Origin: Scyliorhinus canicula
Lineage: Eukaryota
Direction of reading: 5' to 3'
DNA length: 64,000 nucleotides
Assembly (NCBI RefSeq): GCF_902713615.1
Contig: NW_024056027.1
Coordinates: forward strand, 124,001 to 188,000
Position numbers: made by a program. Of the stretch, positions 42,001 through 48,000 are shown piece by piece (within the stretch, counting starts at the first letter, position 1; every line of letters starts with the position of its first letter).

Positions 42001-45000
42001 GCAGGATATCTCAAGTTTCCTCTTAGTGACGTCCATCTCATCAGTTCCCGATAGTCTGGGGATGGAATTCACCCAGAAAAGCTTGAGCCACCGAATGCAT
42101 TATACTGACACAAATTATAAAGGGCCTGATTTAATTTGTGAAGTCATCAAGCACAAAACTGAGAATGTAGAACAGCATCTTTCAGGACCATCTATCCATG
42201 CATCCATCAAACCCATTCACCGATTCCACAATCAAAATATTCAGGCATCTAACAAACATCCATCCCTACATCAAAGCAATAATCCCTTTATCTTTTGGGT
42301 CGGTAGTGGGGGAGTATTAATGACATTGAACCAATAATCCAAAGGCCCGGGCTAATTCTGTGGGGGCTTGGGTACAAATCCCACCATGGCCGGTGGGGGA
42401 ATTTGAGTTCAGTTAATAAATCCGGAATACATACTAATGGTCACCATGAAACCCCCTCTGCTTCACTAATGAAGGAAATCTGACATCCCTCCCTGGTCTC
42501 ACATACATGTGGCTCCAGTCGGCAGCAACATGTCTGACTCTTCAGTTCCTTCTGAGCTGGCCCAGCAAACCACTCAGTTCAACAGCAATTAGGGCAGGAA
42601 CACATGGTGGTCTTGCCAGTGACTCCCACATTCCATGGAAGAATAAAGGGAAAAACACGTAAATGTACATGTTTATCTATTACAAAATGTAGCCCCTGTC
42701 TGATAGTCTGCTTGTATTCCTATCCATCATCACAATGTTATGAGATGTGGGAGAGATACTCCAGCCGGCAATTGCTACGATTGGTCAGAGAAGCTGGATA
42801 ACTCTCCTTTCCTTAGAGATGGGAACAGTTCAAATAGGTTCACAATTTAAAACATAAAAAGATCTCCAGTACTGTTGCTGGGTAGATTTGCTTATAAATA
42901 GTCCTCATTGACAATGTTAAGAGTTTGAAGTTGGATTGCAGCCAAGCGGTCAGTACTGAGCAAACAGATCTTTGAAAAAAAAGTACAGATGTTTCCTGTA
43001 AACAACATTGAACATTCGAGCCTCCCTGACTGCAGGCGGCTGGATTGCTGCCAAATACTGTGTGGGGCAGTTTAACCTGAATATGAATGGATTAAATGGG
43101 ATTTATCCATTCAAACAATAAATGTTTTAGTCGCACATGAAGTGAACGTTTTAAATGGTGTTCCATGCAAATAAATATATTCACTGAATGTTTTGTTCAC
43201 TATGAGATTAAACATGATCGGAAAATAGTAACCTGACCAGATGCTATTTAATTTATAATAGTTCTGAGTAAAGATCACTCTAGTTATTAAAGTCCGTTTG
43301 TTGAGAACCGAATGAAGTGAGAGAGTGATTGGTGTTGATGGACACAATCTACAAGTTCAATAAGATGACTCCAATTCCAAAAAATAAAATAAAATGAAAT
43401 AAAAGTAAATAAACTGCATTGAACTCGGGGGATTCCTGGGATCATCTCCGTTAAACGGAGGCGTCTCTTATACCCGATTAACACCGTGTTCTGTACAGTT
43501 TAATTTGTGCTGATTTCCATTATTTAACAGTCCCTCTCATTGCTGCCAATGAGTGGAGAAATGACCAGTTCATGACCTGCTTCAGTGGAAGATAAAACAT
43601 TTATTCCTGTGATATTGTGTAATATGCCGCAAAGTCCTGATATCCTGTGTTCCCAACACCAGTGAATGTTAGACAGCCGGTGGTCAGTAAAATTAGCGGC
43701 AATAATTTGGATGCTGAAGGATAACTTTGCTGATCACCGTGTCAGTTCTGATTCATTAACTTCTCTGTCAAAAGCTGTTGTTAATTTTATGTTTCTCTGT
43801 CAACTCACTGCTGAATTATCAGGCAAGCGGCTTCTTTTACCGCTAATGTTCACAGGACTGTCTGTGGCTCAGGGGCAAATCGAGAAATGTAAAGAGAGAC
43901 ATTGTGTAATGTTAGAGTTTCTTTTGTCTACAGACCCACATTGTACAGTGATGACCATCCGCACTGCAAATGTAATCACGTCATTCATTCCCTCATTTAG
44001 TTACATTATGTCTGATAAATTATACTTTATTGTTGTAATGGGATAGAGTCCCGGAGTGTTGCAAATCTAACTGACAGACGATTTATTCCCTGATAATGTA
44101 ATTTGATCTATTTGTGTTCATCCCTTTATATTGGAGTGTAGAAATAAAGAGACTTAATATATAATGGAATTAGATTTTACTTAGAGAAGTTCAAGTATAA
44201 TTTTCCATTCGGATGAGGATAGACATTACAATTAATCCATTCAGCCAAACAATTATACCGATCTAATGTATTTTTTAAAATAATATCCTATAGTAAATCT
44301 CTGAGTCCATTCTGTTGGGGGTGTGGAAGGCGGGACGTGGATCCAGTCGCCGCCTCCACCAGGGAATCAACAGGCGGCGCCTGGAAAGCCGCCCCCTTCT
44401 GCCGGGTATTTAAATGCCGCTCACTGGGACCCGAATCCAACAGTCCGGGAGCTGGTTTGTTCACTGAGTTCCTGACACAACCATTTCCCCCAAATGACCA
44501 GAAGGATGAGGTGGGCCATTTCTCTCAGTTTGTTGCTGACTTTCTTATCCCGTGAGTAGTTTTTATTGTCCAAGTCTCTCACTGTTACTGTCTCAGTGTT
44601 AGTCTCTCCTCTGAATGTTCCAGAGTCACCAATCATTTCACCAGCATTAATCCTCGGGCTTTTTGATATATTTTTACAGGTGTCCAGTCGGATGTTGTGT
44701 TGACTCAGCCAGAGGCAGAGACCGGGCGTCCCGGAGGCTCCCTGACACTGACCTGTAAAACCAGCGGCTTCGATCTCGGCACCGCTTACATGCAGTGGGT
44801 CCGCGAGGTTCCCGGCCAGGGGCTGGAGTGGCTGCTTTACTACTATAGTTCATCCAGCAACAACTACGCCCCAGCCATTAAAGATCGATTCACTGCGTCC
44901 AAAGACACTTCAAACAACATCTTATCTTTGGCCATGAGGAGTCTGAAGACCGAAGACACCGCCATCTATTACTGTGCAAGACACCACAGCGAGAGGAACC

Positions 45001-48000
45001 AGGGCTGGACCCGCACAAGAACAGCTCGAGAGGGAATTCAGCAACTTGCAGCTTAACCTGAAGGTCAGCACTTGATTCAAATGTAATATTAATGTCAGTG
45101 ATCAGAGTCAATGCACACGCTGCTTCTTACATAACTAACACAGAGAAAATTAAACAGTAAAACTGAACAAACCAATTGATATAATAGGATGAGCTTGTGT
45201 CAGTTTATATTTATTGTTAACAGTTTCAGCTATTACAGACTTGTATATAATCATCGTTTTATTATTTCTGATACTTGGGCAAATCTATGTACATTGGATT
45301 TGATAAACTGCTGTATAAATTGTAAATTAGATCAGAAGTAAACGTGTATTTGAAGTGAATATTGAGCGGCAGGACTGAACAGAGAGTGAGTGCAGTTTTT
45401 ATGCGGGTGTCTGTCACTGTGACTACAACTGGGGCACAGCAGTTACTGTCAATACAAAAAGCCCCTCAGCACTAATTAACTGAAGCTGGCTCAGTGCTCA
45501 CGTTTATAATCCAACTTTATTCACAGTGAAGCATTATTTGATTCCAGCAATGAGAAAATAATAAGAATTAATGTGGAAAATTGGTGGTCGTTATTTAGTC
45601 ACAGTTGGTGTTTTCAATAACATTTCCATGTCTGTGAAATATAAAACATTCGGTCATTAATGAAGAAAGAACGGTATCCACAAATATTAATATAATTTCC
45701 TGAAAATTAATCGTGAATCTCTTTGCAGTTGGTTTGTGAATATTTAAAATAATGCTGGATTTCTGTCTATTTTGTGCAGATGCGGTTATTGTATGGAGCA
45801 GCTCAGGGAATGTGACACTGTGACATCATGGGCTACTGGGGACAAGGCACCATGGTGACGGTGACTGCAGGTAAGAACCATTCCATTATTTACCAACTGT
45901 TTTACTTGAGTATTTGTTTTATATTTTTCTGCATTTTCAAAATCTATTCGTTCACTGAAATGTGTTTTGTTGGATCATGTATTGAGATGTTGTTGCAATG
46001 TTTCATTTGATTCTGCTGAAAGGGGGATATAGAATCCCGAGGTTTCTTGACAGATAGATGCTGCTGAGGGATTCAGTCCCTGTTTGCTCTGATTTGATGT
46101 TTATTTGCTGAGGATTCTGTGTGGCTGGGTTACTTTAAATGCAAAACGTCTGTTTTTACCCCATGTTTAATCTCGGTTCTATCTAATGTCTGCAGCTTGT
46201 ACCGTCTTCCGCACAAGTGTTTGAGATCGAACCCAACATTGACAAAATGTGTTAAAGTTTCTGTATTATCTTATTGAACATGTTCTGCTTACTGAAAGTG
46301 CTGATGGTATTATTCAAGTTTTCTGTTTAGTTTACCTGTTCATTCATTTGATGACATGAGGGTTTGGTGCTCTAAATTGAGATGTTCTTGCAATGTTACA
46401 TTTGGTTCTGTTGAAAGTGTTTGTAGAATTGAGCTGTTTCTCCATGATGTTTCACTCCTTCAGTGATGTGATTTGGTGTTTTCCTGCTGAGGAATGTTTT
46501 GGGTGACTTTGTGTAGAAAAGTTTGTGAAACGGTTTGGTGTGTCTGTATTGTTTCAACTCGGTGACACTGAGCGGTTACACGGTTTGTGATTGAATGCAG
46601 AGTCTGCGTGTTGGAAACTGCTTGTCGCAGGATTATCGGCTGAGAACAGGGAGGCTGTTTCTGCATCTTGAAAAAAAAGTGAAAATTGCAGCTTAAACTA
46701 AGCCAGGTTTTCGACAAATCCTTTCCGAGCAGAAGTTGTTGCTGCAATCAGTTTGCCGTTTGTGCAAAGTTTAATCTCGGTGGCATCTGATGGTTGCAGC
46801 TTTTACGATCAACTGTAATCATTAAAAACATTTAAATGTGTTTGAAAAATGACTCAGTATGAAAAAAATGGTTAAGTTTCAATATTTATTTGTTGTTAAT
46901 ATTCGAGCACCTCACAGTGATATTTGTGTTATTCCACATTTCTGTTTAGTTTAATAATTTATACATTTGGTTACGAGCTGGTTTGCTGGATATTGATATT
47001 TTCTTGCAATATTAAGATTGATCCAGTTCGGTGCAGAGTTGAGCTGCTTCTCCATAAATGGGTTTCAGTCCTTCATTGATGTGATTTAGTGTTTTGTTCT
47101 GTTGAGGAGATTGTGTATCTGGGTGACTTTAAATGATTCAGATCTGTCAAACGGTGCAGCGTTTCTGCATTGTTTAAACTCGGTGACACTGAGCGGTTAC
47201 ACATTTTCTGGTTGAATGCAAACAGCCTCGGCGTTTGAAAATGCTTGAAGGGCGATTGTCCGGAGAAAACAGCCAGATTTAAGAAAATAATTTAATAAAG
47301 ATATGTTGATGCATTTTGTAATTTTAACTGAAGATTCCAGATTAAACGAAATAATGACTGAAACGCCCATGCAGAACATAGTTACATTTATATAATTCAA
47401 ACAATTGCAATGCGGTGATACAACTCCATATTAACCAAAGGTTATTTTATATTAATATAATTAATCATTAATCACCTTTCGCAATCATACTGTGTTCTGC
47501 ACGAGGTTAACATGACGGGACAGGTTTCTAGGCTGGAAATACATTGTAATTCCAGTTATTCTATTATGTCAGTGCCGCTGCAACCATATTATACCTTCAC
47601 TGTAATGCATAGTTGGATAGCGAGGTAATTATCATTAATCTAATCTTAAACAGGTTTCTGAGATGTGGAAGTCGCTGCCAATCAAGGAATTGTTCCCATG
47701 ATTTTATTTGTATTGTAGGAAAGTTCAGATTGCCTATGGCAAGAGATTGAAAAGTAAAAGCTTGAATGTCAAACCGATTTATTTATTTACAAAAGGTTAA
47801 CAGTACCTTTGCATTTTATAATGACCTCCTGTCTCCCACAGCTGCGCTCTACACACGATAGAATGATAGGAAAACAGATGATAGGAAAGAAAGAATGATT
47901 ATACCTTAGCTTTAGGCTTAAATTTTATTAAATGCTAAATTCAACATCAAATTATCGAATCTACTTGCTCATAATGTGTCAGTTTTACAAATGATTTGAA

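What the first reader, a model, noticed from the sequence alone, without database searches (positions are those of the whole stretch)
44985..45822. IgM cluster with a single 12/12 D instead of D1 + D2: possible germline D-D join or D1 loss
Seen: V(23)-(12)D(12)-(23)J. There are about 430 bp between V and D and about 375 bp between D and J, and I found no second RSS-flanked segment. Established: typical shark IgM clusters are V-D1-D2-J with D1 = 12/23 and D2 = 12/12, and germline-joined genes exist in sharks. Inference: a RAG-type D1-to-D2 coding joint in the germline would leave exactly this layout (D1's 5' 12-RSS plus D2's 3' 12-RSS). The core ACTACA-ACTGGGG looks like a D1-like TACTACA half fused to a D2-like ACTGGG half, but that comparison is from memory. 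Simple deletion of D1 is the alternative. Either way the gene stays 12/23-compliant, needs only two joins, should give shorter CDR-H3s, and allows D inversion.
Basis: partly seen in the sequence, partly recalled or inferred. Interest (0 to 1): 0.68.

Follow-up and report, generated by a model that had tools for sequence, protein, structure and literature searches.

The report
Shark IgM gene cluster with one D
This is a shark antibody heavy-chain gene cluster that carries one diversity (D) segment where textbook shark clusters carry two, probably because the recombination enzyme once fused or removed a segment in the germline; it is a modest variant of a known theme.

Summary
Window 44494-63934 (+) is one IgM heavy-chain minilocus of a carcharhiniform shark. 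Its Cmu1 is 92% identical to Scyliorhinus canicula. The layout is V(23-RSS), then (12-RSS)D(12-RSS), then (23-RSS)J. The D core is 13 nt. Four exact-spacer RSS lie in 838 bp, against 1 in the other 63,162 bp, and 0 of 2000 shuffles gave three or more. A low-threshold scan found no second RSS-flanked segment.

V-D and D-J distances are 437 and 388 nt. That matches two of the ~400-bp intervals of nurse-shark V-D1-D2-J loci, and the geometry of their somatic "V-DD-J" intermediate (PMC2435157 passages).

The origin could not be decided, because no shark DNA collection was available for comparing paralogous clusters. My best guess, at 0.4, is a RAG-made germline D1-D2 coding joint. The rivals are non-RAG loss of one D unit, a layout that is normal for this lineage, and an artefact. 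The short core, about the size of a single D, argues mildly against a fusion.

Germline D-D fusion is already known in IgNAR. My searches found no paper describing a germline V-DD-J IgM cluster. Interest is moderate to low.

In passing: the J-Cmu intron holds a 3.7-kb array that is G-rich and rich in GAGCT, like a switch region.

The parts
44494..44551 (+). Leader exon (ATG to GTGAGT donor, phase 1)
   Evidence: Read; donor checked. The leader MTRRMRWAISLSLLLTFLS equals the start of the S. torazame model P0022.
44680..44984 (+). VH exon, open, with the conserved Cys, Trp and YYCAR
   Evidence: Pfam V-set, E 1.1e-17. 79-82% identity to C. punctatum and S. torazame VH and 77% to H. francisci VH. 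tblastn of shark IgM proteins hits only here and at Cmu.
44985..45023 (+). V recombination signal, 23-nt spacer
   Evidence: Heptamer 6/7, nonamer 7/9. The C. punctatum model P0001 reads through a similar flank.
45024..45393 (+). V-D intersegment spacer (370 nt, 66% A+T)
   Evidence: No RSS pair inside it. No similarity to the D-J spacer or to the rest of the window.
45394..45421 (+). D 5' recombination signal, 12-nt spacer
   Evidence: Heptamer 7/7, nonamer 7/9.
45422..45434 (+). Single D core, 13 nt
   Evidence: Forward frames read TTTG, LQLG and YNW with no stop. One inverted frame has a stop.
45435..45462 (+). D 3' recombination signal, 12-nt spacer
   Evidence: Heptamer 5/7 (starts CAC), nonamer 8/9. 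Its translation with flank, AQQLLSIQKAPQH then a stop, matches 13 of 13 residues of the C-terminus of the S. torazame model P0002.
45463..45783 (+). D-J intersegment spacer (321 nt); holds a lone perfect heptamer at 45522-45528
   Evidence: Nonamers beside the lone heptamer reach only 5/9.
45784..45822 (+). J recombination signal, 23-nt spacer
   Evidence: Heptamer 7/7, nonamer 8/9.
45823..45870 (+). JH segment (IMGYWGQGTMVTVTA) with GTAAG donor
   Evidence: Same J motif as the Mustelus model P0026 and the Triakis cDNA P0024.
45871..63127 (+). J-Cmu intron, 17,257 nt, with reverse-transcriptase debris, a C-rich array (55545-57455) and a G-rich array
   Evidence: The RVT_1 fragment at 52730-53449 (minus strand) has E 4e-12.
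58268..61999 (+). Noticed in passing: 39-nt unit x ~97 tandem array, G-rich and GAGCT-rich on the coding strand
   Evidence: TRF, composition and motif densities, no copy elsewhere in the window.
63128..63424 (+). Cmu1 exon
   Evidence: Pfam C1-set, E 6.4e-15. 92% identity to S. canicula, 91% and 90% to S. torazame.
63626..63934 (+). Cmu2 exon; Cmu3, Cmu4 and the tail exons lie beyond the window
   Evidence: Pfam C1-set, E 5.3e-18; tblastn.

Best explanation
The window holds one complete-looking IgM heavy-chain minilocus of a carcharhiniform shark. It rearranges like a bony-vertebrate V-D-J unit. The V 23-signal pairs with the D 5' 12-signal, and the D 3' 12-signal pairs with the J 23-signal. 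Two joins therefore build the V domain, direct V-to-J joining is barred, and the D could also be used inverted.

The anatomy is shown. The origin is inferred. I think the single D descends from a V-D1-D2-J ancestor in which RAG, active in germ cells, cut the D1 3' 23-signal and the D2 5' 12-signal. It excised the ~400-bp D1-D2 interval and sealed a trimmed D1-D2 coding joint. That would be a heritable copy of the 'V-DD-J' one-rearrangement intermediate that nurse-shark lymphocytes make. The expected consequence is shorter, less diverse CDR-H3.

I do not know when this happened, that is, whether it is specific to this cluster or shared by a family of clusters.
For: Anatomy and significance: (4 exact-spacer signals in 838 bp against 1 in 63,162 bp; 0 of 2000 shuffles reached 3).

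Only one D.

Spacing: 437 and 388 nt coding-to-coding. These are two intact intervals of about 400 bp. Nurse-shark segments lie ~400 bp apart and each rearrangement removes ~400 bp (PMC2435157 passages). A RAG join predicts this spacing exactly; a random deletion does not.

Both flanking signals are good and are 12-spacer, which is what D1's 5' signal plus D2's 3' signal would leave. The D1 = 12/22-23 layout is recalled and comes from no call.

The 3' signal and its flank are conserved. They match 13 of 13 residues plus the stop of the S. torazame model P0002, whose V frame runs straight into this signal. So partly joined relatives probably exist in the family.

Precedents, read as passages:
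- Somatic V-DD-J (PMC2435157).
- Germline RAG activity (PMC2193156).
- Germline hybrid-joint inversion of the D1-D2 interval (PMC2193153).
- Germline D1-D2 fusion in IgNAR (PMC4622739; PMC8692893).

The gene looks usable. Leader, V, J, Cmu1 and Cmu2 are open with normal splice sites.
Against: The core is only 13 nt, about the size of one D (a recalled range). A fusion would need roughly half of each partner trimmed away.

I saw no palindromic (P) or obviously untemplated stretch in the core (my reading). No D1 or D2 reference was available, so the 'D1 half + D2 half' reading is untested.

The S. torazame model P0002 has about 23-25 nt between the V end and the same heptamer (back-calculated). 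That is longer than this core, so a two-D fusion can come out much longer.

I could not check any paralogous cluster of this genome, so the layout may simply be the norm here.

No canonical Ig octamer lies within 500 bp upstream of the ATG. Only 1-mismatch copies occur, at 43964 and 44059. Expression is therefore not shown.
Confidence: 0.4

Rival explanations
1. One D unit, most simply D1, was lost without RAG. The cause was a plain deletion or unequal crossing-over between the two D units. The core would then be an ordinary D2 with its own two 12-signals.
For: A 13-nt core with three open forward frames looks like a normal single D. There is no P or N signature. Horn-shark D segments vary little among clusters (PMC2191167, abstract only), so an intact D2 would be easy to recognise if references were at hand. 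The 3' signal is the J-proximal 12-signal type also seen in S. torazame.
Against: A random deletion has no reason to leave a V-D distance of 437 nt, one canonical interval. It would also have to spare both signals. The V-D and D-J spacers show no repeat homology that could drive unequal exchange; the best match is 13 nt at E 0.51. That test does not cover the lost D1-D2 spacer. RAG-made germline changes are the documented route in these loci.
Confidence: 0.25
2. The single 12/12 D is normal for this lineage. Most IgM clusters of this species or family have one D, either from an old event later copied by cluster duplication or because the ancestor of these clusters never had two. This cluster would then be unremarkable.
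For: No carcharhiniform germline IgM cluster description was found in the papers I could read. The two-D rule rests on horn shark, skate and nurse shark. Reviews allow 'one or a few D' per cluster (PMC8355894; PMC2193153 says 'zero to two Ds'). The D 3' signal is conserved across species, which suggests an old, shared design.
Against: Two D segments occur in horn shark, nurse shark and skate. That points to a two-D ancestor of sharks and rays, so a one-D state is derived in any case. The S. torazame model P0002 carries about 23-25 nt of D-region sequence before the same signal, more than one 13-nt D would give without additions.
Confidence: 0.2
3. The feature is not a germline one. Either the assembly collapsed two similar D units, or it picked up a somatic V-DD-J rearrangement from lymphocyte DNA in the sequenced tissue.
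For: Somatic V-DD-J configurations are frequent in nurse-shark thymocytes and occur in B cells (PMC2435157). The tissue source of this assembly is unknown to me.
Against: There is no N run or gap in or near the cluster; the only one is 10498-10791. The spacers are unique sequence with no internal repeat to collapse on. Somatic joints are polyclonal and would not win a consensus.
Confidence: 0.05

Closest known systems
Canonical elasmobranch IgM minilocus VH-D1-D2-JH-Cmu (nurse shark Groups 1-5; horn shark; skate)
   Same: Split leader, one VH with a 23-signal, one JH with a 23-signal, about 400-bp intersegment distances, Cmu exons downstream on the same strand (PMC2435157 passages).
   Different: One D instead of two, and no D with a 23-type 3' signal. 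The J-Cmu intron is 17.3 kb here against 6.3-6.8 kb quoted for nurse shark.
Somatic one-rearrangement 'V-DD-J' intermediate of nurse-shark lymphocytes and thymocytes (PMC2435157)
   Same: Identical predicted geometry: V and J signals untouched, one D-sized block with outer 12-signals, and total length shortened by one ~400-bp interval.
   Different: Those are somatic and polyclonal. This one sits in a genome assembly and is presumed germline (not verified). Their junction sequences are in supplementary figures I could not open.
IgNAR clusters with germline-fused D segments (nurse shark type III D1-D2 fusion; bamboo shark IgNAR2, 5 and 6 'pre-joined D')
   Same: A D-D coding joint fixed in the germline, leaving a cluster that still rearranges with fewer joins and gives restricted CDR3 (PMC4622739 passage; PMC8692893 passage).
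   Different: A different isotype with three D segments. Here the isotype is IgM and no D would remain unfused.
Germline-joined IgM clusters: VD-J, VDD-J, VD-DJ, VDJ (horn shark, skates), and nurse shark IgM1gj
   Same: Same proposed cause, RAG activity in germ cells acting on an open cluster (PMC2193156; PMC2193153; reviews).
   Different: All the listed forms involve V or J. A form in which only the two D segments are joined is not listed in any passage I read, and the search for 'V-DD-J' found only the somatic study.
Shark IgH variant cluster with the D1-D2 interval inverted by a germline hybrid joint (cited in PMC2193153)
   Same: The same pair of signals (D1 3' and D2 5') cut by RAG in the germline.
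   Different: That outcome was a hybrid joint that kept both D segments and swapped signals. Here the outcome would be the coding joint, with loss of the interval.
Bony-vertebrate IgH segments: V(23) / D(12/12) / J(23)
   Same: The same signal logic, the same two-join assembly, and a D that could invert (PMC2435157 Figure 1 legend passage).
   Different: A single V, D and J inside a private cluster with its own Cmu, not a translocon array.

Membership tests
Elasmobranch IgM heavy-chain minilocus | VH exon with split leader and a 3' 23-spacer signal | tested here: met
   Pfam V-set; 77-82% identity to shark VH.
Elasmobranch IgM heavy-chain minilocus | JH with a 5' 23-spacer signal, a WGxG motif and a splice donor, within about 1-2 kb of V | tested here: met
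Elasmobranch IgM heavy-chain minilocus | Cmu exons (C1-set) downstream on the same strand, closest to shark IgM | tested here: met
   Cmu1 and Cmu2 found. Cmu3, Cmu4 and the secretory and membrane exons lie beyond the window end and were not seen.
Canonical V-D1-D2-J organisation | Two D segments, the first with a 12-signal 5' and a 22/23-signal 3' (layout recalled) | tested here: not met
   Only one RSS-flanked segment lies between V and J, and both its signals are 12-spacer.
RAG-made germline-joined cluster (here: D-D joined) | Absence of the two inner signals and of the interval between the joined segments, with outer signals intact | tested here: met
   The same pattern is also expected from the rivals.
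RAG-made germline-joined cluster (here: D-D joined) | A junction that can be derived from unjoined paralogs by trimming or P/N addition | not testable with these tools
   No shark genomic DNA collection was available. D1/D2 reference sequences sit only in figures or supplements not held.
RAG-made germline-joined cluster (here: D-D joined) | Present in non-lymphoid or germ-cell DNA and inherited | not testable with these tools
   Needs reads or PCR on defined tissue.
Bony-vertebrate-type V(23)-D(12/12)-J(23) rearranging unit (what it works like) | Signal spacers that force V-D and D-J joins and forbid V-J | tested here: met
Immunoglobulin switch region (for the array noticed in passing) | Kilobase-scale tandem repeats in the J-C intron, G-rich on the non-template strand, dense in AGCT | tested here: met
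   Actual use in switching, and whether the array is specific to Ig loci, are not testable here.

The most novel reading that the evidence does not exclude
This is a heritable, still-rearranging V-DD-J IgM cluster. Germline RAG cut the D1 23-signal and the D2 12-signal and sealed a coding joint. That would be the missing counterpart of the hybrid-joint inversion known from another shark cluster. In one step it turned the shark-type D1(12/23)+D2(12/12) design into the V(23)-D(12/12)-J(23) unit used by all bony vertebrates. This shows a simple route by which the tetrapod-style D arrangement could arise. The cluster would be expressed and would give a short-CDR3 subset.
Probability: 0.3. Interest if true: 0.55.

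Novelty: new variant of a known kind. Interest (0 to 1): 0.35.

Why it matters
Shark Ig clusters are the main natural record of RAG acting in germ cells. The forms in print all involve V or J (VD-J, VDD-J, VD-DJ, VDJ), and D-D fusion has been described for IgNAR.

An IgM cluster in which only the D segments were fused, and which can still rearrange, would add the last expected product. It would give a natural test of how one junction fewer shapes CDR-H3 length and diversity. It would also show how the bony-vertebrate signal arrangement can be reached from the shark one.

If the layout turns out to be the norm in catshark-like sharks, the textbook 'V-D1-D2-J' description needs a lineage caveat, and little more.

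Tried and rejected
1. The window holds only this one cluster: tblastn of 5 shark Ig proteins hit only 44670-45053 and 63121-63996. The only open DNA collection holds bacteria and archaea, so I did not use it. The comparison stays undone.

2. Nurse-shark primers for the D1 3' flank and the D1-D2 spacer, copied from PMC2435157. Both gave 0 matches at up to 3 mismatches. This is uninformative across orders.

3. Homology between the V-D and D-J spacers, or copies elsewhere in the window: none.

4. A hidden or decayed D1. The candidates at 45116-45145 and the lone perfect heptamer at 45522 lack usable nonamers and sit at the wrong distances. I rejected them as chance, or at least as unsupported.

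5. D motifs from related proteins.
- The 'TAVG' shared by the Mustelus model P0026 and the S. torazame model P0038 looked like a D motif. Lined up by eye with the window's J signal, it is most likely read-through of the J-signal spacer in gene models, so I dropped it.
- 'YYSNW' in the C. punctatum model P0008 resembles the YNW frame of this D. I could not place it and make no claim from it.
- The few cDNA CDR3s available are too few, and from other species.

6. All three protein searches gave no protein above 92% identity.

7. Literature. Searches found no description of a germline V-DD-J or single-D IgM cluster. One search was swamped by 'single domain/dose' matches. Kokubu 1988, Hsu 2016 and Zhu 2012 are not held. 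Hinds-Frey 1993 is held as abstract only. Supplements are closed, and those of PMC2435157 show the D1/D2 references and DD junctions.

8. Ig octamer upstream of V: only 1-mismatch copies, at 43964 and 44059. I draw no conclusion from this.

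
Full report
WHAT IS THERE

Window 44494-63934 on the + strand is a single immunoglobulin M heavy-chain minilocus. I read 44000-46500 directly. The parts are:
- Leader exon, 44494-44551.
- GT...AG intron.
- VH exon, 44680-44984. It is open, has the conserved Cys and Trp, and ends ...YYCARH.
- One D, 45422-45434.
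- JH, 45823-45870, encoding IMGYWGQGTMVTVTA and followed by GTAAG.
- A 17,257-nt intron.
- Cmu1 (63128-63424) and Cmu2 (63626-63934).

Pfam calls the three domains V-set, C1-set and C1-set.

I searched exon by exon. I did not build or search a joined, spliced model. The V exon is 79-82% identical to VH of Chiloscyllium punctatum and Scyliorhinus torazame and 77% identical to VH of Heterodontus francisci; all 20 of 20 candidates were significant. Cmu1 is 92% identical to S. canicula, 91% and 90% to S. torazame, and 82% to Triakis and Mustelus; 21 of 67 candidates were significant. So the animal is a carcharhiniform close to the catsharks. tblastn of five shark Ig proteins hit nothing else in the 64 kb. 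There is therefore no paralogous cluster in the window to compare with.

THE OBSERVATION

- V 23-signal, 44985-45023.
- D 5' 12-signal, 45394-45421.
- D 3' 12-signal, 45435-45462.
- J 23-signal, 45784-45822.

The D with both signals, 45394-45462, reads AGTTTTTATGCGGGTGTCTGTCACTGTGACTACAACTGGGGCACAGCAGTTACTGTCAATACAAAAAGC.

I counted sites with exact 12- or 23-nt spacers, a CAC start and at least 13 of 16 consensus matches. There are 4 in these 838 bp and 1 in the other 63,162 bp. Of 2000 dinucleotide-preserving shuffles, 1974 gave none, 25 gave one, 1 gave two and none gave three or more.

A much laxer scan found no second pair of opposed signals around a short segment. It did turn up one lone perfect heptamer at 45522, with nonamers of only 5/9 on either side. 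It also found weak heptamer-like sites at 45139 and 45600.

No N run lies nearer than 10498-10791.

WHAT THE SEQUENCE ADDS

- Spacing. The coding-to-coding distances are 437 nt (V-D) and 388 nt (D-J).
- Spacers. The two spacers are A+T-rich unique sequence. They have no similarity to each other or to the rest of the window.
- Core. The 13-nt core is open in all three forward frames (TTTG, LQLG, YNW). One of the inverted frames has a stop.
- Conserved 3' signal. Translated in the D's first frame, the core and 3' signal read TTTG-AQQLLSIQKAPQH-stop. The last 13 residues and the stop coincide with the C-terminus of the S. torazame gene model P0002. In that model the V frame runs (...YYCTRDIVPGPGA) straight into this signal. 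That shows the 3' 12-signal and its flank are conserved between species. It also suggests, though a gene model cannot prove it, that a partly joined VD(D)-J relative exists in S. torazame.

HOW IT SHOULD WORK

The spacers force V-to-D and D-to-J joining and forbid V-to-J. Two joins instead of three make the V domain, and a D with two 12-signals can in principle be used inverted. This is the signal logic of bony-vertebrate IgH (PMC2435157, Figure 1 legend passage). Shorter and less diverse CDR-H3 is an inference. I had no transcript data.

WHERE IT CAME FROM

From the passages I read:
- Every functional nurse-shark IgM gene has one V, two D and one J, about 400 bp apart (PMC2435157).
- Each rearrangement removes about 400 bp, and 'V-DD-J' is one of the somatic one-step intermediates.
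- Horn shark and skate also have V-D1-D2-J clusters, many of them partly or fully joined in the germline (PMC2193153; reviews PMC5192425, PMC4279169 and PMC3308330).
- RAG activity in germ cells is the accepted cause (PMC2193156).
- One variant cluster has the D1-D2 interval inverted by a germline hybrid joint, so that very signal pair has been cut in the germline.
- D1-D2 fusion is known in IgNAR clusters (PMC4622739; PMC8692893).

The present cluster has exactly the geometry a germline D1-D2 coding joint would leave: two intact ~400-bp intervals and two outer 12-signals. A random deletion would not be expected to restore a canonical interval. I therefore rank the RAG joint first, at 0.4.

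Evidence against it:
- The core is no longer than a single D.
- I see no P or N signature.
- P0002 shows that D-region material before the same signal can be about 23-25 nt long.

The D1 = 12/22-23 and D2 = 12/12 rule, typical D lengths, and any likeness of the core to known D segments are recalled. I did not test them.

RIVALS

- Non-RAG loss of one D unit, leaving a plain D2 (0.25).
- A layout that is simply normal for this lineage (0.2). This concerns age more than mechanism.
- Assembly collapse or a captured somatic joint (0.05).

None of these could be tested. No shark DNA collection was available. Kokubu 1988, Hsu 2016 and Zhu 2012 are not held. Hinds-Frey 1993 is held as abstract only.

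NOVELTY

My searches found no paper describing a germline IgM cluster with only the D segments joined, or with a single D. The search for 'V-DD-J' returned only the somatic study; of the 7 papers holding any of the four searched notations, it alone held that one. The library lacks most subscription papers, so this is weak evidence that the form is unpublished. I rate the finding a new variant of a known kind, of moderate to low interest unless the census shows it to be a recent, cluster-specific RAG event.

NOTICED IN PASSING

The J-Cmu intron contains a 3.7-kb tandem array (58268-61999) of a 39-nt unit repeated about 97 times. It ends 1128 nt before Cmu1.

On the coding (non-template) strand the array is 44% G and 12% C. 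Motif densities, against the rest of the window, are:
- AGCT: 19.6 per kb against 2.5-4.2.
- GAGCT: 17.7 against 0.6-0.7.
- GGGG: 29.7 against 1.5-4.3.
- G-runs of 3 or more: 70 per kb on the + strand against 0.3 on the minus strand.

The array has no copy elsewhere in the window. These are the hallmarks of a mammalian-type switch region. Yet three reviews state that cartilaginous fish lack switch regions (PMC4279169; PMC8201067; PMC3308330). I could not test whether the array is specific to Ig loci or is a genome-wide minisatellite. It may deserve its own follow-up.

Noticed in passing
window 58268-61999 (+), inside the J-Cmu intron: A 3.7-kb tandem array of a 39-nt unit repeated about 97 times, ending 1128 nt before Cmu1. 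On the coding strand it is 44% G and 12% C. GAGCT runs at 17.7/kb against 0.6-0.7/kb elsewhere, AGCT at 19.6/kb against 2.5-4.2, and G-runs of 3 or more at 70/kb against 0.3/kb on the other strand. It has no copy elsewhere in the window. It looks like a mammalian-type switch region, while the reviews I read say sharks lack switch regions. Whether it is specific to Ig loci is unknown.
   Followed up: partly
window 55545-57455 (+), inside the J-Cmu intron: A C-rich tandem array (54% C, 3% G; units of 24/38 nt) lies just upstream of the G-rich array and has the opposite strand skew. A CA-rich low-complexity stretch lies at about 49.5-51.4 kb.
   Followed up: partly
window 45522-45528: A lone perfect RSS heptamer lies 88 nt downstream of the D. 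Nonamer-like sequence reaches only 5/9, at a 24-nt spacer on one side and a 12-nt spacer on the other. About 0.1 such heptamers would be expected by chance in 838 bp on both strands (my estimate). No coding segment is attached to it.
   Followed up: partly
window 44970-44976 (minus strand reading), inside VH FR3: A heptamer-like site (6/7) is embedded at the ...YYC... codons of the V exon. This is where the conserved cryptic signal of VH genes is said to lie; I saw that only as a title in the reference list of PMC8692893.
   Followed up: no
window 35732-38038 (-) and 52730-53449 (-): A long open reverse-transcriptase ORF (769 aa, Pfam RVT_1, E 4.5e-33) lies about 6.5 kb upstream of the V. A shorter RT fragment (E 4e-12) lies inside the J-Cmu intron. 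Similar RT fragments recur across the window. Retroelement insertions help explain the long 17.3-kb intron.
   Followed up: partly
window 4389-4426 (+), 8954-8991 (-), 25860-25897 (+): The same RSS-like string (heptamer 6/7, 22-nt spacer, nonamer 7/9) occurs three times. These are probably copies of one interspersed repeat rather than real recombination signals.
   Followed up: no
protein P0002 (S. torazame gene model), compared with window 45434-45475: The model's V frame continues into a stretch identical (13 of 13 residues plus the stop) to the translation of this D's 3' signal and flank. This suggests a partly germline-joined VD(D)-J cluster in cloudy catshark with the same J-proximal signal.
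   Followed up: partly
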